Positions 10,025-21,721 of a stretch of 64,000 nt of DNA are shown here, in pieces (within the stretch, counting starts at the first letter, position 1; the number at the start of each line of letters is the position of its first letter). The stretch is from positions 54,908-118,907 of the forward strand of contig UQST01000005.1 in the NCBI GenBank assembly GCA_900543815.1. The letters are read 5' to 3'. The position numbers were made by a program, and so were the translations under genes. Under the pieces are notes generated by a model. The model saw only the letters and a list, made by a program, of their open reading frames with translations, ran no database searches and had not been told where the DNA came from. Source of the stretch: an uncultured Prevotellaceae bacterium (GTDB lineage Bacteria; Bacteroidota; Bacteroidia; Bacteroidales; Bacteroidaceae).

Positions 10025-11125
10025 ATGGAACTATATCCTAAACTGATAACAGACGCACTCTCCACCGTGCGTTATCCTGGAACAGGAAAGAATGTGGTGG
10101 AGATGAAGATGCTGGAGGACGACTTGCGCATCGCAGGCATGCACGTCAGCTTCACACTCATCTTCGACAAGCCCACCGACCCCTTTATGAAGAGCATGGT
10201 GAAGGCTTGCGAGGCTGCCATACACGCTTATGTGAGCAAGGATGTGGAGGTTGAGGTGAAGACCAAAGCCTTGCAGGCTCCCCGTCCAGACCTCCCCGAT
10301 CTGCTTCCCGGCGTGAAGAACATCATAGCCGTAAGCAGTGGCAAGGGCGGAGTGGGCAAGAGCACAGTGGCTGCCAATCTGGCTGTGGCACTGTCCAAGA
10401 TGGGCATGAAGGTGGCTCTGCTCGATTGCGACATCTTCGGTCCTTCAGTACCCAAGATGTTCCATATAGAGGATGCCCGTCCCTATAGCGAGCGCATCAA
10501 CGGCCGCGACCTCATCATGCCCGTGGAGAAGTACGGAGTGAAGGTGCTCAGCATCGGCTTCTTCGTCAATCCCGACCAGGCAACGCTCTGGCGTGGAGGT
10601 ATGGCATGCAATGCCCTCAAGCAGCTCATAGGTGATGCCAACTGGGGCGACATCGACTATTTTGTCCTCGATACTCCTCCCGGAACCTCTGACATCCACC
10701 TCACCCTGGTGCAGACATTGCCCATCACAGGTGCTGTCATCGTGAGCACACCCCAGCAAGTGGCACTGGCCGATGCACGCAAGGGCATCAACATGTACCA
10801 GAACGACAAGGTGAATGTGCCTATTCTCGGACTGGTGGAGAACATGTCATGGTTCACTCCAGCCCAGCATCCCGACGAGCGTTACTTCCTCTTCGGGCAG
10901 GAAGGTGTGAAGCACCTGGCCGAGGAGATGAATGTGCCTCTCCTGGGACAGATTCCTGTGGTGCAGGATATCTGCCAGAGTGGCGACGAAGGAACGCCTG
11001 CAGCCCTCGACCCAACTACTACCACCGGCCATGCCTTCATGCAGTTGGCTGCCCGTGTAGTTACCGAGACCGACCGACGCAACTCGCAACTCCCTCCCAC
11101 CACCATAGTGGGTACCCACAAGTAA
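10025..11125 (+). CDS. mrp: Fe-S cluster carrier ATPase, Mrp/ApbC/NBP35 family
   Basis: 366 aa; N-terminal DUF59-like domain; deviant Walker A SGKGGVGKST; CxxC-containing C-terminal region. Confidence 0.9.
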   Translation: MELYPKLITDALSTVRYPGTGKNVVEMKMLEDDLRIAGMHVSFTLIFDKPTDPFMKSMVKACEAAIHAYVSKDVEVEVKTKALQAPRPDLPDLLPGVKNIIAVSSGKGGVGKSTVAANLAVALSKMGMKVALLDCDIFGPSVPKMFHIEDARPYSERINGRDLIMPVEKYGVKVLSIGFFVNPDQATLWRGGMACNALKQLIGDANWGDIDYFVLDTPPGTSDIHLTLVQTLPITGAVIVSTPQQVALADARKGINMYQNDKVNVPILGLVENMSWFTPAQHPDERYFLFGQEGVKHLAEEMNVPLLGQIPVVQDICQSGDEGTPAALDPTTTTGHAFMQLAARVVTETDRRNSQLPPTTIVGTHK

Positions 11126-11290
11126 GCAACCTATAGATAAGCAAATCCCTAACTGGCCTATGGCCTTACCAAGGAAGCCGCTGACAAATAAGCAACCTAC
11201 TGGCTTATGGCCTTATTAAGGATGCCGCTGACAAATAAGCAACCTACTGGCCTATGGCCTTACCAAGGGAACCGCTGAGAAATAAGCAAC
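11126..11290. repeat. Tandem repeat, about 47 bp x 3 (TAAGCAACCTACTGGCCTATGGCCTTACCAAGGAAGCCGCTGACAAA), starting at the mrp stop codon
   Basis: Three consecutive near-identical units read directly; the first unit has a roughly 19-bp insertion; a fourth partial unit (taagcaacctatacaaacaac) follows. Confidence 0.6.
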
Positions 11291-11306
11291 CTATACAAAC
11301 AACAAG

Positions 11307-11342: not shown

Positions 11343-11699
11343 ATCGTATGCTCGGCATGAGCATTGTCTAACGGGTGCAAGTCCCAGGGAAAGGGCTATT
11401 TGCGAGTGTAAAGCAGTTATCTCATGTGCAGGATTCATTTTGCCTCCAGGGCGGGTATGCCGTACATCTCCACCGTCCAACCCAAGGCTGGACGGTCAGA
11501 GAATATATATTACTTTGCCAAGTAAGCAAGCTTCATCCACCGTCCAGCCTAGGGTTGGACGGTCAAGGGCAACTTCTTTCCTGATGTGAAGACACACAGG
11601 AAGTGCCGAAGAAGCCTACATCTCCCTGTTCACCAATCGGCTTCCCTTGTACAGCCTCGGAATCACAACCATCCGTTACTCTGTATTTACAGGGTGGTT

Positions 11700-14686
11700 G
11701 TTGCGCTATGTCCTCTTTCATCACCAAACCACAACCTCAAGGTGGTTCTCTGCGGATATAGTATGTTGCGTTATATCCTCTTTCATCACCAAACCACAAC
11801 CTCGGGATAGTAAGTCTTGCCGTCGGCATCGTTGCGTTATATCCTCTTTCATCACCAAACCACAACAGGTGCGTGTAATGCCCATGCCTTTGCCTGTTGC
11901 GTTATATCCTCTTTCATCACCAAACCACAACTAGGGCTGATAGGTTTTTGTGTGTGATTGAGTTGCGTTATATCTTCTTTCATCACCAAACCACAACCTT
12001 ATGACTGGTTTGATGGTTTATGGTACGTTGCGTTATATCTTCTTTCATCACCAAACCACAACCCTCCTGCTGCTACTAAGCCTAATCAAATGTTGCGTTA
12101 TATCTTCTTTCATCACCAAACCACAACAGTTACGGCAAATAATTGCTTTTGTTGTTGTTGCGTTATATCTTCTTTCATCACCAAACCACAACCTTTTTGC
12201 TTATTATAAAGCGTGGTTCGATGTTGCGTTATATCTTCTTTCATCACCAAACCACAACATGGCACTAAGGATAATTATTTGGGGATGGTTGCGTTATATC
12301 TTCTTTCATCACCAAACCACAACCTGCGTCTGATGTTCTTACCTTTATTAAGGTTGCGTTATATCTTCTTTCATCACCAAACCACAACCCAGCTGGGGAC
12401 ATAAAGTAACATTATACAGTTGCGTTATATCTTCTTTCATCACCAAACCACAACCAACAATGAAACAAGTAACATTAAAATCCAGTTGCGTTATATCTTC
12501 TTTCATCACCAAACCACAACCCGATTGACTCGCATAAGAGTCCTTTCTTGGTTGCGTTATATCTTCTTTCATCACCAAACCACAACCAATTCGTGCAGGA
12601 TTGTGTTTCTTTGGGGTTGCGTTATATCTTCTTTCATCACCAAACCACAACTTGGTGAGTGTGATATCGCCGCTAAGACTGGTTGCGTTATATCTTCTTT
12701 CATCACCAAACCACAACTCAAGGACGACCGCTTTCCACTGGATAACGTTGCGTTATATCTTCTTTCATCACCAAACCACAACTTTTTCATGCGTTTGTCC
12801 GCTCGTACTTGGTTGCGTTATATCTTCTTTCATCACCAAACCACAACCTTGAATGGGATTTGGTAAAGGACAATTAGTTGCGTTATATCTTCTTTCATCA
12901 CCAAACCACAACCTTTTTCCTCTGTTCCTCGTGTGCTTGGTTGTTGCGTTATATCTTCTTTCATCACCAAACCACAACAACTCGAGTATGAAAATCAGCG
13001 TAATGCAGTTGCGTTATATCTTCTTTCATCACCAAACCACAACGCAGGGCGGCTTCCCCGTCTCAAGACACCAGTTGCGTTATATCTTCTTTCATCACCA
13101 AACCACAACTTACCGCTTCGGATAGTGGCATAATGATGAGTTGCGTTATATCTTCTTTCATCACCAAACCACAACTCCAAGGTTCTGACTATGACGTATT
13201 TATAAGTTGCGTTATATCTTCTTTCATCACCAAACCACAACATGACCTTAGTTCTTTTTCTCGTTCAAATAGTTGCGTTATATCTTCTTTCATCACCAAA
13301 CCACAACCCGAAATCTCTTCTGATGTTGTGCGTGTATGTTGCGTTATATCTTCTTTCATCACCAAACCACAACTTTTGTATGATGCTTCACGGCCTGATA
13401 AAGGTTGCGTTATATCTTCTTTCATCACCAAACCACAACCTATAGCAAGAGAGCATAACGCTAATGCAGGTTGCGTTATATCTTCTTTCATCACCAAACC
13501 ACAACTTGATTTGAGTGCTTTGTGCCGTTCTAACAGTTGCGTTATATCTTCTTTCATCACCAAACCACAACATCGCCCGGCTGGTACATCTTTCTTTGTT
13601 GTTGCGTTATATCTTCTTTCATCACCAAACCACAACGTCAAGTCTCTGCAAATGAATCCATTGCTCGTTGCGTTATATCTTCTTTCATCACCAAACCACA
13701 ACTGCAAGATGCTGCTTTTCGTACTCGCGAACGTTGCGTTATATCTTCTTTCATCACCAAACCACAACCTGAGATGGAGGCTATACGTGCCAATATTGTT
13801 GCGTTATATCTTCTTTCATCACCAAACCACAACTTGTTACCATATTTGCGCAACACGGTATTTGTTGCGTTATATCTTCTTTCATCACCAAACCACAACT
13901 GGTTGGTGAATTGCTTACGCTTGGTGTTGTTGCGTTATATCTTCTTTCATCACCAAACCACAACTGCGCGCTACTCCTATGGCTGGTGTCGGTTGTTGCG
14001 TTATATCTTCTTTCATCACCAAACCACAACTCCAGTATGTCTAAATCTCGTTATTTCCGGTTGCGTTATATCTTCTTTCATCACCAAACCACAACGCGCT
14101 GCTCTTGCTCCTTTTGTTAAGTAGGTTGCGTTATATCTTCTTTCATCACCAAACCACAACTGCGTGATTATCATTCACCTATACAACAAGTTGCGTTATA
14201 TCTTCTTTCATCACCAAACCACAACTATGGTGCTTATCGTGGTATCCGTGGTTCTGTTGCGTTATATCTTCTTTCATCACCAAACCACAACTGTTACATT
14301 GTATTATTGCTATTGCTTGTGTTGCGTTATATCTTCTTTCATCACCAAACCACAACGCAGGGCGGCTTCCCCGTCTCAAGACATAAGTTGCGTTATATCT
14401 TCTTTCATCACCAAACCACAACCGGTATCGGAATGTAATTTAACATAGAAATGTTGCGTTATATCTTCTTTCATCACCAAACCACAACGCCCGCTTTGAT
14501 GGTTGCAAATATATACATGTTGCGTTATATCTTCTTTCATCACCAAACCACAACCCCTTGCAGATGGTTCTGCTCCTGCGACTGGTTGCGTTATATCTTC
14601 TTTCATCACCAAACCACAACTCCCCGAGAAGTTTTGAACGTGATTGGGTAGTTGCGTTATATCTTCTTTCATCACCAAACCACAAC
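11700..14686 (-). CRISPR. CRISPR array, 46 repeats of 36 nt with 45 spacers of 29-30 nt. Plus-strand repeat: GTTGCGTTATATCTTCTTTCATCACCAAACCACAAC. crRNA orientation (minus strand): GTTGTGGTTTGGTGATGAAAGAAGATATAACGCAAC
   Basis: Repeat starts counted by eye at 11700, 11765, 11831, 11896, 11962 ... 14585, 14651, period 65-66 nt. The four cas-distal repeats are degenerate (11700 copy GTTGCGCTATGTCC...; next three ATATCC instead of ATATCT). Lies directly downstream of cas2 on the same strand. Confidence 0.95.
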
Positions 14687-14770
14687 CTGTATTCCTTATG
14701 TGCTGTAATATTATACAGTTACAAGGCGTATATAGTACAGAAAATGGAATGGCGAGTTCCTTATCTATGG

Positions 14771-14778
14771 CAAAATTA
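14771..14778 (-). promoter_or_regulatory. Candidate leader promoter -7 element (TAATTTTG on the minus strand), immediately after the cas2 stop codon, about 85 nt upstream of the leader-proximal repeat
   Basis: Matches the Bacteroidetes TAnnTTTG -7 consensus; the -33 TTTG element is not clear. Confidence 0.3.
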
Positions 14779-15117
14779 CTAAAAAAACTCAAGTTGCACA
14801 GGCTTCTTTTGTACTTTTTGTTCTATCTCTCCCCATATATTGATGATGTTGGAGTATTGTTTGTCGGTTATCGTGATTATACTAAGTCTTCCCTTGCTGG
14901 GCATGAAGAGTTTTACCCGCTTGACGTGTACATCCCTTGATTCGAGTGAAGCACAGAAACGAATGTACACACTATATTGGTGCATTACGAATCCGTCGCG
15001 TTCAAGGCTCTTGCGGAAAACTGCATAATCATGTTTCTCCTTCTTGCTGACGGTTGGTAGGTCGAACATAACAACAATCCACATTATCTTATATGCATTG
15101 AGACGTGTTTCGCTCAT
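14779..15117 (-). CDS. cas2: CRISPR-associated endoribonuclease Cas2
   Basis: Track ORF 14779..15237 has an N-terminal extension overlapping cas1. Likely start at the internal ATG at 15117 (MSETRLNAYKIMWIVVMFDLPT..., about 112 aa, Cas2 size), overlapping the cas1 stop by 4 nt. Confidence 0.8.
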   Translation of the reverse strand: MSETRLNAYKIMWIVVMFDLPTVSKKEKHDYAVFRKSLERDGFVMHQYSVYIRFCASLESRDVHVKRVKLFMPSKGRLSIITITDKQYSNIINIWGEIEQKVQKKPVQLEFF

Positions 15118-16001
15118 TTGAGGGTAGGCAATGACAGTTTCTTCTGTTCCCCTGCATAGCATTTGGCAAGTGATGCCATGGTCATGGACAATCCTATTTG
15201 TAGCGGGCGGGTGACTTTGGGATAGTAAGTGTCGCACGATAGGCAGGATAACAGCTCAAACTTTGTATCTTTGTTCAGTTGAAGTTTGCCTTCTTCGCAG
15301 AGATTATAGACTATTTCATCCACGAAGGGGCGGAAAGGCTCCATCAGATCATCGGCAAGCGGAAAAGCGTTTCCTCTGTTGTGATGGAATATACCCAGGG
15401 AAGGAGTCAATCCTGCAGCCACTAACGCGCGGGCTGTTGCTGCACGCAGGATGGTGTAGCCGTAATTCAGAAGCGAGTTAATTCCGTCCTCATTGCGGTC
15501 TCTGAAGAAGTCTTTGCCAAACAGTTCTGTCCAATAAAGTTTTGCAGCTATCCCTTCTCGGTTGTCAACGTCTCCACTCTTTACGTTGGAGTATAGTGGC
15601 TTGAGGATATCTCCTCTGCCGTGCAACTTGTCTAATAATGCTGCTTGGTTGTTGATTTTGGATTCTATTATCTGTTTCCACAGTTGTTTCTTCTGCACTT
15701 CTCCTACGTTGATTTGATTGCGCAGAAATTCCCCTTGAAGGTTGTTGGCATCCAAATTCTGTAGCATGGCATGTGGCATGCCTTTCCTATCGCAGAGGAT
15801 TACAGCCACACCATTATCAACAAGTTCGTTGAGAAGTGGCATTGTCACACTGACCATTTGGTTCTCAATGATAATCATGCCAGTGTCCTCAATCGGGACT
15901 GTACGCACTTCGTCAGGAATGCCCTTGATAGTTATTACCAGTTGGGCATTCTTGAGCGAAAGTTGCGCAGGGGAGGTGAAGCAAAGTGTGCGTTTAAGCA
16001 T
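15114..16001 (-). CDS. cas1: CRISPR-associated endonuclease Cas1, type II
   Basis: 295 aa; sits between cas9 and cas2; acidic/His-containing C-terminal half (GIFHHNRGNAFPLADDLMEPFRP) typical of Cas1. Confidence 0.85.
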   Translation of the reverse strand: MLKRTLCFTSPAQLSLKNAQLVITIKGIPDEVRTVPIEDTGMIIIENQMVSVTMPLLNELVDNGVAVILCDRKGMPHAMLQNLDANNLQGEFLRNQINVGEVQKKQLWKQIIESKINNQAALLDKLHGRGDILKPLYSNVKSGDVDNREGIAAKLYWTELFGKDFFRDRNEDGINSLLNYGYTILRAATARALVAAGLTPSLGIFHHNRGNAFPLADDLMEPFRPFVDEIVYNLCEEGKLQLNKDTKFELLSCLSCDTYYPKVTRPLQIGLSMTMASLAKCYAGEQKKLSLPTLK

Positions 16002-16006
16002 ACTGA

Positions 16007-19000
16007 TTATTTTAGCTTGATTTCACCAATTGGTGTGATTTCAAAATCTACACCTTCTACTAAGGCCTTGAACTGGGTATGGTAGAGAAAAATAGATGCT
16101 CGTATCGGGTCTGTGTTCTTGTATGCTCCCTTTGTTATCTGTACGTCCTTGGCACTTCTAGCCTCACTGTGATGTCGTAGCGTGATTGTTCCATACCAAG
16201 TGCCTACAGGCAGGTAGCTTAGCCCTACTATCTTGTATAGACGTTTTGAGACGTCATTGACGTCTTTGAAGTCTATCTCCGTTGCACTGTTTTCGTACAA
16301 AAGAACCATCTGCCCAATCTTCAGCAAGTACTTGAGAGCGTAGCCCTTGGAACTTTTCTCTGGCACTATTGCAGGATAGTCATTTCTGTCGGTACTCTTC
16401 TTATAATAAGCCGCAGCATCAAGATTGTTCACAATCTCGTACTCTCGTTTTGTCTTACCTTTAACCATACCTTCGTAGATGGCGAGACAGTAGTTGCCGT
16501 CGTTAGCCACGTTGAATGTCTGCTTGTATTCTTTGGTGCTGGCATCCCGATGATGACGAATGTGAAGTGGAGTCTTAACAGATGGGGTATAGCAACGTAC
16601 CTTCTTAATCTCAATTCCTTTCTCTTCGTTCATGAATACGGGCTGGAGCACATTGTTCACAAAGGCAGCTTTCACTTTTTCTCTGACTACTTCATCCACA
16701 ATCTTATCTACATCGCTGAACTTGAAAGTGCAGTCAAGTGTCCTGCGAACCACATATTTTACGTCTCCATCCTGCTCTATGGCTCCATAGTAGGTATCCT
16801 GATGCAGGCTACCACGGGCACAATCTCCCTTGGCCTGTTTCTTACCATGGGGAGTGTCTATCATGCGGCAGGCTTTCTTGGGCATGTTGTCAGGAGTGTC
16901 GTGTACGACAAGCAACTCTTCGCTTATCTGCTTGAGGTCTTGGGTAAACGTGCTCCAGGGTTTGGGGAATATGGGCTTTTCGCCTTTGCCCTCTGTATAG
17001 TCATACATCTCATGATGATATCTGCTCATCTGGTTGAGCTCGTTCTTGCCGATGCAGGCTATGACTATAGCATCGATGCAATGGTGCGTGTGGCTGTCAC
17101 GTGACTTCTTTTCGTACTCTTCCTGTATCCCCCACATCTTGCGGAACTCTGCTGTGATGGGACCTTTGATGCTGAATACCTGTCGGCGTTCAGGGTGTAC
17201 CACATCGTGGAAGTAGCTCTTCAGATAGAGGGCAGCATACTTGGAGATGAGGCCGATGCCAGCTCCCTGACGCAGTGCAAAGCCTTCGGGCACTTCCTCC
17301 ATAGTGAAGCGCTGGTATTTGCCATGCCAGTAATCGCGCTCTATCTTCAGGCGGTTCTTCTTGCGTATGAGAGTGTCCTTGGTAGTTTTGTCCCAAACAC
17401 CTCGCGTGCTTATCTTGTCTATCTGTTTCGTGAGTTCTTCTACCTTCTTCTTCCAAGGCTCGATGCGAACAAGAATCTGTTCGTAATCAGGGAGCTTGGA
17501 AGGCAGTTGGGCTTTCTTGACAAAGCGGTTGTAATGGCTGTCACACAGGGTCATATTCTCCTGGGTGCTGTCACCTCCCACGCTGCGAGGTATGGTGTGC
17601 TCAATGTCAAAGGGAGTGCCTGCACCGACGAAATCAGTGATGCCGATATTCTTGCCTGTGTAAAGGCACACGTGGTCCTGTTCCTCCCACAATTGGAACT
17701 TGAGTATGTCGGTCTCTGTCGGCTCGATATCGCGGTTGGTCTGCTCTCTGTACAGCTTCTTCAGCTCCTCTGCATATTCCTTGTGCTTCTTGTCCAGTGT
17801 CCTCTGATGTTCGTTTATAGCGGCACGCATATTGGCATTGTTCAGTGAACGGGCATACTCGACGTGCACTTCTGTGTCGGGTCCAATCTTCCCTTCTTTG
17901 ATAAGGGTGTTCACTACCTTGCGTATTTCATGCAGAGAACGCATAGCCATGGGGTTGCGCACAGCATTGGTACGCGGGCTGCCCAGAAGGACAACTCCAT
18001 CATGGTTGGGCTTTGCATCCGGATAAGTCTCTATCATCGATGGGTGATAAAGCTTCTCCAACGCTTTCTCGCAGACGCCAAATTCCTCGTGCAGGAAATC
18101 CTTGATACAGAATTCGAGTGTGGAACGTTGGTCTCTCACTTCGTCAAGTGGTGCTGTTGCCATCTTGTTCACCTGGTCAAGGATTCGTTCACGCTTCTCT
18201 GGGTCGTTCCATATGTCGGCACCCACCAGTTTGGGAATGTTGCCCATAAACACAGCATGACTGTAGAGCATGCCCATCCTCAGGAAAGGAAGGACGTTGC
18301 GGATGGCCTTGAGCGAGAGTGATGAGAAGTTGTGGCTCAGGCGTATCTTGGCAAATTTCTCGGCATGTTCCTCGTCGAGTTGCAGGTGGTTGATGCCAAA
18401 CTCTTTCAGTTTGTCCTTGCTGTCGAAGAAATAGAGCACGTTCCAGATGTCGCATGCCATCTCTTCGGCAGTCTTTTGTCTGCCGTCCTTGCATTGGTTC
18501 ATGTCGAATGTCTCGGCTATTCCTTCCATCCAGTTGTCACCAAAGACGGTACGGAGCTGGGCTATCGTATGACATCCAGGCACACCTTGCGTCATGCGGA
18601 AGTTGAACTTGTATGGCTTTTTGCCAGCCTCCTTCGCATACTGGTAGTTGCCTTTTCCTGCTATCTTCTTGGCTATCTCTTCAAAGTCAAAGTTGGCCTT
18701 GCTCACTCGATAGAAGAGAGGCTTAATCTTGTACAACTCCACTTCGTTCAGGGGACGAGGTTCCATGTCATAAGGGTCTTCGATGCGCACGTTGTTGAGG
18801 AAGGACAACATGCGGAACTCCTCATACAGCGGATGAGAATCACTGCATCGTGGTTTGTTCTTCTCGAAGGTACATTTGCCCACGCTTTGACGTTGGCTTT
18901 TGAGCGGACGCTGGAAGTAAAGAGCGCGTTCCAGTTCATGCCTTATCTCTTGGCTTAATCCCTGTTTGTCGCAGATGGCATGGAACTCTTTCTTGTAATG

Positions 19001-19663
19001 CTCTTCGCGGTCGATGTATCTTGTTCGTATGCGCACTTTGTTTCCCTGTTGCGTGTATAGCATGTAGAAGTATTCGCCCAGGTATTCGCACCCGGCTTTC
19101 TCCATCTCTTGGCTCAACTCCGAAATGCCTTGCTTTACGGCTCCGCTTTCTTTTTCCTCATTGGCATCCAAACGATTGCTCATGAATCCTCTGCGCTGTG
19201 CCAGATGATAAAGGGCTCTTCCCAGAGTATAGCGGTCAGCCTGTTTGTTGAGGTCGAACTTTTCCGTCAGGCAGATGTGGCGACTGTGGTAGGGGTTGAT
19301 GCCTTTGTTCTCATCTGTGCGCTGCCACTGCATGAATTCATCCTTTCTGGGATAAATCTTGCGCGTATGCCACAGCTTCAGATCCTCTTCTGTCAATGCT
19401 GGACACAGATTGTGCTTGACAAGCACCTTGAGCACTTCTATCTTGCGCAGTCTGCGTCGGAAGTATTGGCGTCGCAATGCTCTGTGGGCAGTTCGATCTG
19501 CTGCCTTGCTGGACTCTATGCCCTTCTCTATCTTGACTCCTTCCTGAAAGATGAGTGTTCCTTTGTCCACCAATGTCTGTTCACCGCTTTCTTCGCGGTC
19601 AACAATGGCCCATCCGAGGCTGTTGGAGCCAGTATCAAGGCCTAAAACACGCTTTTTTGCCAT
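16007..19663 (-). CDS. cas9: Cas9, type II-C, compact at 1218 aa
   Basis: RuvC-I LGLDTGSNSLGWAIV (Asp at position 10); Arg-rich bridge helix RTAHRALRRQYFRRRLRK; RuvC-II VHVEYARS; HNH FDIEHTIPRSVGGDSTQENMTLCDSHYNRFVKK; RuvC-III HHCIDAIVIA. No csn2 or cas4 in the locus, hence II-C. Confidence 0.95.
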   Translation of the reverse strand: MAKKRVLGLDTGSNSLGWAIVDREESGEQTLVDKGTLIFQEGVKIEKGIESSKAADRTAHRALRRQYFRRRLRKIEVLKVLVKHNLCPALTEEDLKLWHTRKIYPRKDEFMQWQRTDENKGINPYHSRHICLTEKFDLNKQADRYTLGRALYHLAQRRGFMSNRLDANEEKESGAVKQGISELSQEMEKAGCEYLGEYFYMLYTQQGNKVRIRTRYIDREEHYKKEFHAICDKQGLSQEIRHELERALYFQRPLKSQRQSVGKCTFEKNKPRCSDSHPLYEEFRMLSFLNNVRIEDPYDMEPRPLNEVELYKIKPLFYRVSKANFDFEEIAKKIAGKGNYQYAKEAGKKPYKFNFRMTQGVPGCHTIAQLRTVFGDNWMEGIAETFDMNQCKDGRQKTAEEMACDIWNVLYFFDSKDKLKEFGINHLQLDEEHAEKFAKIRLSHNFSSLSLKAIRNVLPFLRMGMLYSHAVFMGNIPKLVGADIWNDPEKRERILDQVNKMATAPLDEVRDQRSTLEFCIKDFLHEEFGVCEKALEKLYHPSMIETYPDAKPNHDGVVLLGSPRTNAVRNPMAMRSLHEIRKVVNTLIKEGKIGPDTEVHVEYARSLNNANMRAAINEHQRTLDKKHKEYAEELKKLYREQTNRDIEPTETDILKFQLWEEQDHVCLYTGKNIGITDFVGAGTPFDIEHTIPRSVGGDSTQENMTLCDSHYNRFVKKAQLPSKLPDYEQILVRIEPWKKKVEELTKQIDKISTRGVWDKTTKDTLIRKKNRLKIERDYWHGKYQRFTMEEVPEGFALRQGAGIGLISKYAALYLKSYFHDVVHPERRQVFSIKGPITAEFRKMWGIQEEYEKKSRDSHTHHCIDAIVIACIGKNELNQMSRYHHEMYDYTEGKGEKPIFPKPWSTFTQDLKQISEELLVVHDTPDNMPKKACRMIDTPHGKKQAKGDCARGSLHQDTYYGAIEQDGDVKYVVRRTLDCTFKFSDVDKIVDEVVREKVKAAFVNNVLQPVFMNEEKGIEIKKVRCYTPSVKTPLHIRHHRDASTKEYKQTFNVANDGNYCLAIYEGMVKGKTKREYEIVNNLDAAAYYKKSTDRNDYPAIVPEKSSKGYALKYLLKIGQMVLLYENSATEIDFKDVNDVSKRLYKIVGLSYLPVGTWYGTITLRHHSEARSAKDVQITKGAYKNTDPIRASIFLYHTQFKALVEGVDFEITPIGEIKLK

Positions 19664-19673
19664 ATTCTTATGA

Positions 19674-19710
19674 TTTGTTTTGCTCGTTATTTATATATTC
19701 CTTATATTTG
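19674..19710 (+). promoter_or_regulatory. Candidate tracrRNA promoter: TTTG at 19674-19677 and 19679-19682 (-33-like), TATATTTG at 19703-19710 (-7)
   Basis: Bacteroidetes sigma-A consensus TTTG...TAnnTTTG with about 21-nt spacing; predicted TSS near 19717-19720. Confidence 0.5.
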
Positions 19711-19716
19711 CAACAT

Positions 19717-19796
19717 AAAATTCATCACCTTATCACAATAAGGCTATATGCCGAAGGATGAATTCCTAGCGCCTCTCTTCGGAGAGGCTTTTTTTG
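19717..19796 (+). ncRNA. tracrRNA: Predicted tracrRNA, about 80 nt, divergent from cas9
   Basis: Anti-repeat UUCAUCACCUUAUCACAAU (19721-19739) pairs with crRNA repeat 5'-GUUGUGGUUUGGUGAUGAA: 9 perfect bp, a 2-nt mismatch bulge, then 8 bp including two G·U pairs. Followed by a nexus-like CAAUAAGGCUAUAUGCC (compare CAAUAAGGCCG in the Neisseria tracrRNA), a small hairpin AGGAUGAAUUCCU, and terminator GCCUCUCUUCGGAGAGGC plus U7 (19771-19795). Confidence 0.65.
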
Positions 19797-20190
19797 TATC
19801 CTTGCCCGTCTGTGGGTTTGCTCGGACGATATGTGTGTTAAAGCCTGATGTTTCCATGCTACTGTCTTTGTTTGTTAGCGAAGTTATAACAAAAATGATG
19901 GTGAGCCAACAAAAAAGAGAAAAAGCTATGGATGAGCGAATGGAATCGTCTGTTTCCCGCACCATTTTGACCCAGATGCTTCATGAAAACCGCTTCTCGC
20001 ATCGTTTGTAAGTCTCAAAAGCCACCCTGAGAGCATACTTGCGTTCTTATGATAGTAGGTTTGATGGCCTTATCTGGGTACTGTGTCTTGATTGTTGCAG
20101 CCCCACACATCAATCCGGGAAGAAGATTGTGGGGCGGTGGGGATGGATATCGGGAGAAAAGGTGTTATCTTTGTCTTCGGACTTTAATGT

Positions 20191-20478
20191 ATGGATAGGA
20201 TAAGGAGGATAGTGATTCTATCGATGGAGATAAAGGATTGTCATCCGTGTGACAAGGTTCTCTGTACGGATGCTGAGTATGCCGAGATGGCGGGAGAACT
20301 GGCTACGATAATCTGGGAAGAGAAGCTGGGTGATATGGACGATGTGATGTTCATCATCTGGAACACCCTGCATGTCTTTCTTGCTACCTTATATATAAGG
20401 ATAGGCAAAAGGTTTTGGGCGTTTGGGCTAAAGTGTTGGCGTGGAAATCTGCTTGGTATAGCGTTCGATGGCCAATAG
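20191..20478 (+). CDS. Hypothetical small protein, 95 aa, in an otherwise ORF-free 950-bp block next to cas9/tracrRNA
   Basis: ATG-initiated ORF MDRIRRIVILSMEIKDCHPCDKVLCTDAEYAEMAGELATIIWEEKLGDMDDVMFIIWNTLHVFLATLYIRIGKRFWAFGLKCWRGNLLGIAFDGQ; no recognisable motif; coding status uncertain. Confidence 0.25.
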   Translation: MDRIRRIVILSMEIKDCHPCDKVLCTDAEYAEMAGELATIIWEEKLGDMDDVMFIIWNTLHVFLATLYIRIGKRFWAFGLKCWRGNLLGIAFDGQ

Positions 20479-20632: not shown

Positions 20633-21655
20633 TTATTCGATGACCACGTGAGTCCATCCGTGGGTGTCGGGAAGTACACCGTACTGGATGTCGCGCAGCA
20701 TGTGGTAGAGCTTGGTACTGATGGGACCAGGCTGACCATCCTTGCTGATGACGTAGCTCTTCTTGTTCTCCAGGTCGTCGATACGCTCGATGGGGGAGAT
20801 GACAGCAGCGGTGCCGCATGCGCCGGCCTCTTCAAAGGTGGCCAACTCTTCCTCGGGTATCTGGCGACGCTCCACCTTGAGGCCAAGATCCATAGCCAGC
20901 TGCATCAGGCTCTTGTTGGTGATGCTGGGCAGGATAGAGGTGCTCTTGGGAGTCACATAGGTGTTGTCCTTGATGCCGAAGAAGTTGGCTGCTCCGCACT
21001 CGTCGATGTATTTCTTCTCCTTGGCATCCAGATAGAACTCGCAACTGTAGCCCAAGTCGTGTGCCATCTTGTTGGCCTTCAGGCTGGCTGCATAGTTGCC
21101 GCCCACCTTGTAGATACCGGTGCCCAAGGGGGCGCTGCGGTCATATTCGCGGATGATGACGTATGGGTTGGTGGCAAAACCACCCTTGAAATACGGTCCC
21201 ACTGGGGTAACGAAGATGAGGAAGAGGTATTCCTCAGAAGGGTGAACGCCTACCTGTGCGCTTGTACCTATGAGCAGTGGGCGCACGTAGAGGGTTGCTC
21301 CGCTCTCATAGGGCGGAATGAAGCGTTCGTTGAGGCGCACCACCTTCTCTACCATCTCGATGAACTTCTCGGTGGGAAGTTCGGGCATGAGGATTCCACG
21401 GCAGGTGCTCTGCAGGCGGGCAGCATTCTCGTCGGGACGGAACACACGTACCTTGCCGTCGGGACAGCGATATGCCTTGAGTCCCTCGAAGGCTTCCTGA
21501 CCGTAGTGAAGGCATGTGGCTGCCATGTGCAGGGGGATAGTCTCCTCGCTGCACACCTCTATTTCGCCCCACGCACCGTTGCGGTAGTAGCAACGCACGT
21601 TGTAATCAGTCTTCATGTAACCGAATGAAAGGTTACTCCAGTCTATTTCTTTCAT
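20633..21655 (-). CDS. ilvE: Branched-chain amino acid aminotransferase
   Basis: Track ORF runs to 21697; likely start at MKEIDWSNLSFGYMKTDY (21655); PLP fold class IV features (EGLKAYR, VGGNYAASL). Confidence 0.85.
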   Translation of the reverse strand: MKEIDWSNLSFGYMKTDYNVRCYYRNGAWGEIEVCSEETIPLHMAATCLHYGQEAFEGLKAYRCPDGKVRVFRPDENAARLQSTCRGILMPELPTEKFIEMVEKVVRLNERFIPPYESGATLYVRPLLIGTSAQVGVHPSEEYLFLIFVTPVGPYFKGGFATNPYVIIREYDRSAPLGTGIYKVGGNYAASLKANKMAHDLGYSCEFYLDAKEKKYIDECGAANFFGIKDNTYVTPKSTSILPSITNKSLMQLAMDLGLKVERRQIPEEELATFEEAGACGTAAVISPIERIDDLENKKSYVISKDGQPGPISTKLYHMLRDIQYGVLPDTHGWTHVVIE

Positions 21656-21721
21656 ATTGTAATGAGTTATAGTCCTTTTGTTACAAGCTGTAGGCAAAAT
21701 GTCGGCAGCGTTGGTGCAAAG

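What the first reader, a model, noticed from the sequence alone, without database searches (positions are those of the whole stretch)
14779..19796. Complete type II-C CRISPR-Cas module with a compact 1218-aa Cas9 and a divergent predicted tracrRNA
cas9, cas1 and cas2 are contiguous on the minus strand with no csn2 or cas4, which defines subtype II-C. Cas9 shows all catalytic signatures: D10-type RuvC-I, bridge helix, HNH and RuvC-III. At 1218 aa it is small for Bacteroidota Cas9 proteins, which are commonly larger. Together with the predicted tracrRNA this would give a complete effector definition, but the PAM is unknown.
Basis: partly seen in the sequence, partly recalled or inferred. Interest (0 to 1): 0.6.

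Follow-up and report, generated by a model that had tools for sequence, protein, structure and literature searches.

The report
Ordinary type II-C CRISPR-Cas9 locus
This is a complete, apparently functional but ordinary CRISPR-Cas9 immune locus of an uncultured gut Bacteroidales bacterium; its only unexpected feature is that every traceable spacer matches the same strand of small single-stranded DNA phages.

Summary
cas9 (1218 aa), cas1 and cas2 lie on the minus strand. They are followed by a 92-nt leader and an array of 46 repeats and 45 spacers. A divergent tracrRNA gene sits upstream of cas9. All Cas9 catalytic residues are present. No csn2 or cas4 is nearby, so the subtype is II-C.

The tracrRNA is well supported. 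It has a Bacteroidetes-type promoter and an intrinsic terminator. It is conserved in nine related loci, and its anti-repeat covaries with the repeat.

The locus is not unusual. More than 120 homologues measure 1203-1247 aa, and its 90%-identity cluster has 529 members. The biochemically characterised RspCas9 (1213 aa, Gasiunas 2020, clade VIII) shares 55% identity over the 399 residues available. It also has the same repeat type and the same guide-RNA fold.

- Protospacers give a PAM of about 5'-N5TTR-3'.
- The PAM-interacting domain is a swapped allele compared with near-identical Cas9s.
- 24 of the 45 spacers match Microviridae. All of them give guides complementary to the packaged, mRNA-sense strand (p about 1e-7).

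That strand bias is unexplained and is the most interesting lead. Verdict: a new member of a known kind, of modest interest.

The parts
11700..14686 (-). CRISPR array: 46 repeats of 36 nt (crRNA sense GTTGTGGTTTGGTGATGAAAGAAGATATAACGCAAC) and 45 spacers of 29-30 nt. The degenerate repeats are at the 11700 end, which is the old end of the array.
   Evidence: Orientation is set by four things: the anti-repeat complementarity, homology with the validated Rsp repeat, the degenerate distal repeats, and a conserved motif found only in the 3' flanks of the protospacers.
14687..14778 (-). Leader, with a Bacteroidetes-type -7 promoter box (TAATTTTG on the minus strand, 14771-14778) directly after the cas2 stop codon.
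   Evidence: A TAnnTTTG box sits at the same place in 10 of 10 related loci. The motif occurs only 34 times in the 64-kb window, counting both strands. Promoter function is inferred.
14779..15117 (-). cas2, 112 aa from the ATG that overlaps the cas1 stop codon. The longest ORF runs to 15237.
   Evidence: Pfam CRISPR_Cas2 3.5e-16. The gene call in the identical locus L004 is 112 aa.
15114..16001 (-). cas1, 295 aa.
   Evidence: Pfam Cas_Cas1 1.4e-37.
16007..19663 (-). cas9, 1218 aa. Catalytic residues: RuvC-I D10, RuvC-II E602, HNH H689/N703/N712, RuvC-III H861/D864. The arginine-rich bridge helix is at about residues 57-80. The variable PAM-interacting region is at about residues 1101-1180 (nt 16124-16363).
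19679..19710 (+). tracrRNA promoter: TTTG (19679-19682), 20 nt, then TATATTTG (19703-19710). This fits the Bacteroidetes -33/-7 consensus.
   Evidence: Read from the sequence. The same arrangement is present in related loci. Promoter function is inferred from the known Bacteroides consensus TTTG-N19-21-TAnnTTTG.
19714..19795 (+). tracrRNA; the 5' end is approximate. It comprises the anti-repeat (19721-19739), the nexus hairpin GGC-UAUAU-GCC (19742-19752), a second hairpin (19755-19767), and a terminator hairpin (19771-19788) with a U7 tail.
   Evidence: Co-folding with the repeat gives -45.9 kcal/mol and the same architecture as the validated Rsp and Ghe sgRNAs. The terminator was found. The gene is conserved in 9 loci. 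Covariation is shown.

Best explanation
This is a canonical type II-C CRISPR-Cas9 adaptive immunity locus from an uncultured gut Bacteroidales bacterium. Only 'Bacteroidaceae bacterium' MAG names were recovered for the organism.

Proposed mechanism. The pre-crRNA is transcribed on the minus strand from a conserved promoter at the head of the leader. The tracrRNA is transcribed divergently from its own promoter. Its anti-repeat pairs with the first 19 nt of each repeat, as an 8-bp stem, a 2x2 U/U internal loop and a 9-bp stem. The Cas9:crRNA:tracrRNA complex then recognises DNA carrying a 3' PAM of about N5TTR and cuts it with the HNH and RuvC domains. Cas1-Cas2 add new spacers at the leader end.

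Targets. More than half of the immune memory (24 of 45 spacers) is directed at gut Microviridae.

What is shown: gene content, catalytic residues, the repeat/anti-repeat duplex (by covariation), array orientation, spacer targets, and the flanking motif.

What is inferred: transcription start sites, RNase III processing, nuclease activity, and that the flanking motif is the functional PAM.
For: - Gene content: Pfam domains. The best solved-structure relatives are 1082-1095-aa Cas9s, which I recognise as II-C enzymes of the Geobacillus/Neisseria type. No csn2 or cas4 lies among the flanking ORFs.
- Catalytic residues are present and invariant.
- tracrRNA: on an alignment of 13 repeat+tracrRNA sequences, 93.5% of cells pair and 9 pairs show changes on both sides. 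No shuffle out of 500 reached these values, and slid controls paired only 33-60%. This includes a change specific to this locus: repeat A12 to G with anti-repeat U to C.
- Guide scaffold: it is homologous to the validated sgRNAs of RspCas9, Ghe and Cme3 (PMC7606464, Supplementary Data 2).
- Promoter boxes are conserved in relatives.
- Spacer targets: 60 spacer-to-microvirus matches, against 0-3 for shuffled spacers.
- PAM: in the 21 best protospacer flanks, +6 is T in 19, +7 is T in 14, and +8 is A or G in 18. The upstream flanks carry no signal. Three further spacers, representing two further protospacers, agree.
Against: - There are no expression or activity data.
- No consensus promoter for cas9 itself was found in 19664-20300.
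- The PAM rests on protospacers with 1-7 mismatches in related phages, not the actual ones. Some flanks have TT at +5/+6, and the flanks for spacer 38 lack the motif.
- The PAM-interacting domain is a variable allele, so the PAM cannot be transferred from relatives.
Confidence: 0.9

Rival explanations
1. The locus is a decaying or inactive remnant. The genes are present, but the system no longer acquires spacers or interferes.
For: No direct expression data exist. The distal repeats are degenerate. Most spacer matches to known phages carry mismatches.
Against: All three cas ORFs are intact and all catalytic residues are conserved. Forty-two of the 46 repeats are identical. The array is long. 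Spacers 5 and 25 record two acquisitions at the same protospacer. The promoters and the tracrRNA are conserved. Degenerate distal repeats are normal in active arrays.
Confidence: 0.05
2. In vivo this Cas9 acts mainly on single-stranded targets, either the incoming or progeny (+) ssDNA of microviruses or their mRNAs. On this view dsDNA cleavage is not its only activity. Spacers whose guides pair with that strand are the ones retained by selection.
For: All 24 mapped spacers (23 protospacers) give guides complementary to the gene-sense strand of the microvirus genomes. By established knowledge of Microviridae, this is also the packaged strand. The candidate PAM TTR is about equally frequent on both strands, with 46% on the strand used. 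The binomial p is 9e-8 for the first 21 spacers. Vink 2021 reports the opposite bias, towards the template strand, for type II-A and II-C overall (PMC8482600). From my recollection of Clarke 2018 (bioRxiv 10.1101/300962 was listed but not read), RNA polymerase dislodges Cas9 when the guide anneals to the template strand, which also predicts the opposite bias. Cas9 enzymes are reported to cleave ssDNA, and II-A and II-C enzymes to cleave ssRNA without a PAM (Ma 2015 and Zhang 2015, as cited in Strutt 2018, PMC5796797).
Against: This rests on a single array. The 197 spacers of related arrays had essentially no database hits, so the bias could not be replicated. A PAM-like motif is still conserved next to the protospacers, so dsDNA recognition is at least used during acquisition. 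An unknown acquisition bias on rolling-circle intermediates is not excluded. No biochemistry exists for this enzyme.
Confidence: 0.35

Closest known systems
RspCas9 (Rikenellaceae sp., 1213 aa, clade VIII of Gasiunas et al. 2020, PMC7606464)
   Same: Almost the same length. Identity is 55% over the 399 N-terminal residues available. The 36-nt repeat begins GUUGUGGUUUG. The sgRNA architecture is identical: an 8-bp stem, a UU/UU internal loop, a 9-bp stem, an AAGGC nexus hairpin, a small second hairpin and a terminator.
   Different: The reported PAM is NVNDCCY, against N5TTR inferred here. The C-terminal part of Rsp was not available for comparison. At about 55% identity it is not a close orthologue.
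Nme1/Nme2Cas9 and GeoCas9 (structurally solved II-C Cas9s)
   Same: The cas9-cas1-cas2 operon has no fourth gene. The domain order and catalytic motifs match. These are the best PDB matches, at E 8e-38 to 1e-29. The PAM sits 5-8 nt downstream of the protospacer. Near-identical enzymes carry swapped PAM-interacting domains, as described for N. meningitidis Cas9 orthologues in Gasiunas 2020 (52% identity in the PAM-interacting domain versus 98% elsewhere).
   Different: This Cas9 is about 130 aa longer. Only local alignments are found, to residues 5-470 and 563-976. Transcription appears to start from a leader promoter. No promoter motif was seen inside the repeat, whereas my recollection is that Neisseria and Campylobacter arrays carry repeat-embedded promoters. 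That comparison was not tested further.
Prevotella histicola Cas9 (Phi, 1380 aa, clade X, Gasiunas 2020)
   Same: It comes from the same host order and is also a type II system with a tracrRNA ending in a similar AAGG nexus.
   Different: It belongs to a different clade, has a 47-nt repeat, is 160 aa longer, and has a different PAM.

Membership tests
Type II CRISPR-Cas (Cas9 systems) | A single large effector with a split RuvC domain (motifs I, II, III) and an inserted HNH domain, with the catalytic Asp/Glu/His/Asp and His/Asn residues | tested here: met
   Pfam RuvC_III, HNH_4 and Cas9_a. D10, E602, H689, N703, N712, H861 and D864 are present and invariant in 10 homologues.
Type II CRISPR-Cas (Cas9 systems) | A tracrRNA with an anti-repeat that pairs with the CRISPR repeat | tested here: met
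   Co-fold energy is -45.9 kcal/mol. Across 13 loci or sgRNAs, 9 pairs show compensatory changes, and no shuffle out of 500 reached the observed values.
Type II CRISPR-Cas (Cas9 systems) | An adaptation module (cas1, cas2) and an adjacent CRISPR array | tested here: met
Type II CRISPR-Cas (Cas9 systems) | A PAM on the 3' side of the protospacer | tested here: met
   A T/T/R signal at +6 to +8 appears in the 3' flanks only. It is inferred from mismatched protospacers and has not been shown biochemically.
Type II CRISPR-Cas (Cas9 systems) | RNA-guided dsDNA cleavage | not testable with these tools
   This needs in vitro cleavage or in vivo interference assays.
Subtype II-C | No csn2 (which defines II-A) and no cas4 (which defines II-B) in the locus | tested here: met
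   cas9, cas1, cas2 and the array are contiguous. The flanking ORFs are an Mrp/NUBPL-type ATPase, an aminotransferase IV, and two small ORFs with no family match.
Subtype II-C | The Cas9 groups with II-C Cas9s | tested here: inconclusive
   The best PDB matches are 1082-1095-aa Cas9s that I recognise as II-C. No formal phylogeny was built.
Gasiunas clade VIII (Rsp-like Bacteroidales Cas9) | Cas9 sequence relatedness, plus the clade's repeat and sgRNA type | tested here: met
   Identity to Rsp is 55% over 399 aa. The repeat prefix and the predicted sgRNA fold are the same. Tree placement was not computed, and the C-terminus of Rsp was not available.

The most novel reading that the evidence does not exclude
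The array's complete bias towards guides complementary to the packaged, mRNA-sense strand of Microviridae (23 of 23 protospacers) reflects natural selection for Cas9 action on single-stranded phage DNA or on phage mRNA. If so, it would be in vivo evidence that the PAM-independent ssDNA and ssRNA cleavage seen in vitro for II-C Cas9s has a real role in defence against ssDNA phages.
Probability: 0.3. Interest if true: 0.65.

Novelty: new member of a known kind. Interest (0 to 1): 0.3.

Why it matters
As a Cas9 locus it adds little. The clade is abundant, and one member is already characterised together with its guide scaffold.

Its practical value is a fully defined effector: the protein, the crRNA orientation, a covariation-supported tracrRNA or sgRNA design, and a T-rich N5TTR PAM. 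That PAM differs from the characterised relative's CC-rich PAM.

It also gives a natural example of PAM-interacting-domain swapping among otherwise 97-99% identical enzymes.

The strand-biased targeting of ssDNA phages would speak to an open question if it proves general: whether the single-strand nuclease activities of II-C Cas9s have any biological role.

Tried and rejected
- Rfam. No family reached its gathering score anywhere in the window. Permissive scans around the tracrRNA gave only chance-level hits, so no Rfam family covers this tracrRNA.
- Species identification. Names from homologues stop at 'MAG: Bacteroidaceae bacterium'.
- IMG/VR. Exact scans with spacer 1 and with the core shared by spacers 5 and 25 found nothing. 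VP1-based scans returned only distant microviruses.
- Generalising the strand bias. None of the 197 spacers from related arrays matched the 18 microvirus genomes in hand. The two BLAST runs on them against the phage collection returned a repeat-level match of the L036 array to one fragment (MT838156.1) and a single spacer match to crAss-like Bacteroides phages. The bias therefore could not be replicated.
- Repeat-embedded promoters of the Neisseria or Campylobacter kind. No TAnnTTTG box lies in the repeat, and a conserved leader promoter exists instead.
- PAM abundance as the cause of the strand bias. TTR and TTRA are about equally frequent on both strands.
- Literature. Searches for a characterised Prevotella orthologue of this clade, or for a prior report of strand-biased Cas9 spacers against Microviridae, found none in the held library. 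This is absence in that library only.
Full report
**What is there.** ORF listing and translation confirm three contiguous minus-strand genes at the reported coordinates. They are cas9 (16007-19663, 1218 aa), cas1 (15114-16001, 295 aa) and cas2 (ORF ending at 14779). The most plausible cas2 start is the ATG at 15117, which gives 112 aa and overlaps the cas1 stop codon. The identical locus L004 is called this way. Pfam assigns RuvC_III, HNH_4 and Cas9_a to the large protein, Cas_Cas1 to the second and CRISPR_Cas2 to the third.

Downstream, outside the finding's interval, lies the array at 11700-14686. It has 46 repeats of 36 nt and exactly 45 spacers of 29-30 nt. The three or four repeats at the 11700 end are degenerate. 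The leader is therefore the 92 nt between cas2 and the array. The flanking genes are an Mrp/NUBPL-type ATPase (10025-11125) and a class IV aminotransferase (20633-21697). The two small ORFs between the tracrRNA and the aminotransferase match no family. There is no csn2 or cas4, so the subtype is II-C.

**Cas9.** The best relatives with solved structures are 1082-1095-aa Cas9s, with E-values of 8e-38 to 1e-29. I recognise these as II-C enzymes. The alignment to the best one (9ar4) superposes LGLD10 on IGLD, VHVE602 on IHIE, DIEH689 on EVDH, and HHCID864 on HHAVD. D10, E602, H689, N703, N712, H861 and D864 are invariant in ten homologues at 60-93% identity.

**tracrRNA.** On the plus strand, divergent from cas9, the sequence reads as follows:
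- TTTG at 19679-19682, then 20 nt, then TATATTTG at 19703-19710. This fits the Bacteroidetes -33/-7 promoter consensus.
- An anti-repeat at 19721-19739.
- AAGGCUAUAUGCC, a nexus-type hairpin.
- A small second hairpin.
- The terminator GCCUCUC-UUCG-GAGAGGC followed by U7.

Co-folded with the repeat, it forms an 8-bp stem, a UU/UU internal loop and a 9-bp stem. This is the same fold as predicted for the validated sgRNAs of RspCas9 and Ghe Cas9.

The same element, with the same promoter boxes, sits upstream of cas9 in nine related loci fetched through homologous Cas9 proteins. I aligned the repeat plus tracrRNA from these loci with three published sgRNA systems, 13 sequences in all. In that alignment 93.5% of cells pair and nine pairs change on both sides. 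No shuffle out of 500 reached these values, and slid controls pair only 33-60%. One compensatory change is private to this lineage: repeat position 12 is G instead of A, and the anti-repeat has C instead of U. Rfam has no family that covers this RNA.

**crRNA transcription.** A TAnnTTTG box lies directly after the cas2 stop codon in all ten loci. In the window it is at 14771-14778 on the minus strand. The motif occurs only 34 times in the 64-kb window. There is no such box inside the repeat. The array is therefore most likely transcribed from the leader and processed through the tracrRNA duplex. This is inferred. No consensus box for cas9 itself was found.

**How ordinary is it?** The protein search returned more than 6000 hits. 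The best 120 are 1203-1247 aa long (median 1216) and 60-93% identical. Its own 90%-identity cluster has 529 members, all unnamed. The named relatives are 'Bacteroidaceae bacterium' MAGs and Prevotella sp. oral taxon 376.

The Gasiunas 2020 catalogue (PMC7606464, Supplementary Data 2) contains RspCas9 from a Rikenellaceae sp. It is 1213 aa, clade VIII, with PAM NVNDCCY. Its repeat is GUUGUGGUUUGAUGUAGAA..., and its tracrRNA is clearly homologous to this one. The 399 N-terminal residues held in the stored supplement are 55% identical to this Cas9. The only Prevotella Cas9 in that catalogue, from P. histicola, is 1380 aa, has a 47-nt repeat and belongs to clade X, which is a different lineage. 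So 1218 aa is small compared with some Bacteroidota Cas9s but standard for its own clade. The clade already has a characterised member, though not a close one.

**Targets and PAM.** BLAST of the array against 50,697 phage records hit mainly Microviridae from pig faeces. I fetched 12 of those genomes and scanned them with all 45 spacers, ungapped, allowing up to 7 mismatches. This gave 60 matches involving 21 spacers, against 0-3 matches for shuffled spacers. A metagenomic microvirus concatemer (L038/L039) added spacers 5, 25 and 29.

Taking the best hit for each of the first 21 spacers, in crRNA sense, the 3' flank has T at +6 in 19, T at +7 in 14, and A or G at +8 in 18. The 5' flank shows nothing. 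The PAM is therefore about 5'-N5TTR-3'. The caveats are that the protospacers carry 1-7 mismatches, that a few flanks have TT one position earlier, and that the flanks for spacer 38 lack the motif.

**PAM-interacting domain.** Against the commonest allele of its own 90% cluster (P0001 type, 1223 aa), this Cas9 is 97-99% identical over residues 1-1100. Over residues 1101-1180 it is only 42-47% identical. At least three alleles occur in the 14 cluster members examined. This is the same kind of domain swapping that Gasiunas 2020 describes for N. meningitidis Cas9 orthologues. It means the inferred PAM applies to this allele only.

**The unexpected part.** All 24 mapped spacers, representing 23 distinct protospacers, match the strand opposite to the genes of the microvirus genomes. 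In those records every gene is on one strand, and one record is deposited reversed. The guides are therefore complementary to the mRNA-sense strand. By established knowledge of Microviridae, that is also the packaged strand.

TTR sites are about equally frequent on the two strands, with 46% on the strand used. The binomial p for the first 21 spacers is 9e-8. Vink 2021 reports the opposite tendency, towards the template strand, for type II-A and II-C in general (PMC8482600). From my recollection of Clarke 2018 (bioRxiv 10.1101/300962 appeared in the results but was not read), the RNA-polymerase dislodging effect also predicts the opposite. Cas9 enzymes are reported to cleave ssDNA, and II-A and II-C enzymes to cleave ssRNA without a PAM (Strutt 2018, PMC5796797, citing Ma 2015 and Zhang 2015). 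Selection for guides that can attack the incoming or progeny single strand, or the mRNA, is therefore a plausible cause.

It remains a single-array observation. The 197 spacers of related arrays had essentially no database matches. An acquisition bias is not excluded either. The 21 unmapped spacers have the same A-over-T skew as the mapped ones, which is compatible with the same origin but proves nothing. I found no earlier report of this bias in the held library.

**Verdict.** The observation and its interpretation are correct. The locus is a well-formed, probably active II-C system and a new member of a known, abundant clade. As a Cas9 discovery its interest is modest. The strand-biased targeting of microviruses deserves a systematic survey.

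Noticed in passing
window 11700-14686 (spacers), against loci L005-L016 and L038/L039: 24 of the 45 spacers match Microviridae genomes. All of them give guides complementary to the gene-sense (packaged) strand. TTR sites are equally available on both strands (p about 1e-7). This is opposite to the template-strand preference reported for type II systems in general.
   Followed up: partly
window 16124-16363 (Cas9 residues 1101-1180): Mosaic PAM-interacting domain. Identity to the commonest allele of the same 90% cluster is 97-99% elsewhere but 42-47% here. At least three alleles occur among 14 cluster members.
   Followed up: partly
window 14357-14386 and 13044-13073: Spacers 5 and 25 are identical except for the first three nt at the PAM-distal end. 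Both map to the same microvirus protospacer (L038), so they record two separate acquisitions at one site.
   Followed up: partly
window 11152-11293 and 11469-11565: Between the Mrp-type ATPase gene and the old end of the array lie three tandem 47-nt repeats and, further on, a long near-perfect hairpin. Rfam gives only chance-level miRNA-like hits to the hairpin. Their function is unknown.
   Followed up: no
L030 1532-7217 and L031: A related locus has cas9 followed directly by its array, with no cas1 or cas2. A WYL-domain gene abuts the tracrRNA. L036/L037 also have the WYL neighbour.
   Followed up: no
window 19664-20300: No Bacteroidetes-type -7 box for cas9 itself was found on the minus strand. 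The tracrRNA -33 box lies only 16 nt from the cas9 start codon. The cas9 promoter is therefore either non-consensus or lies beyond or within the tracrRNA gene.
   Followed up: partly
MT838156.1 5510-5623: A 5.6-kb 'Bacteriophage sp.' record from human faeces ends in sequence that matches the CRISPR repeats of the related array L036. It could be a phage-borne repeat, a mis-binned fragment or an assembly artefact.
   Followed up: no
L012 (MG945255.1), around 6852 (+) and the opposite strand near the record start: This microvirus record carries the spacer-8 protospacer on both strands, and its VP4 is truncated. That suggests an inverted duplication or an assembly artefact in the deposited genome.
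   Followed up: no
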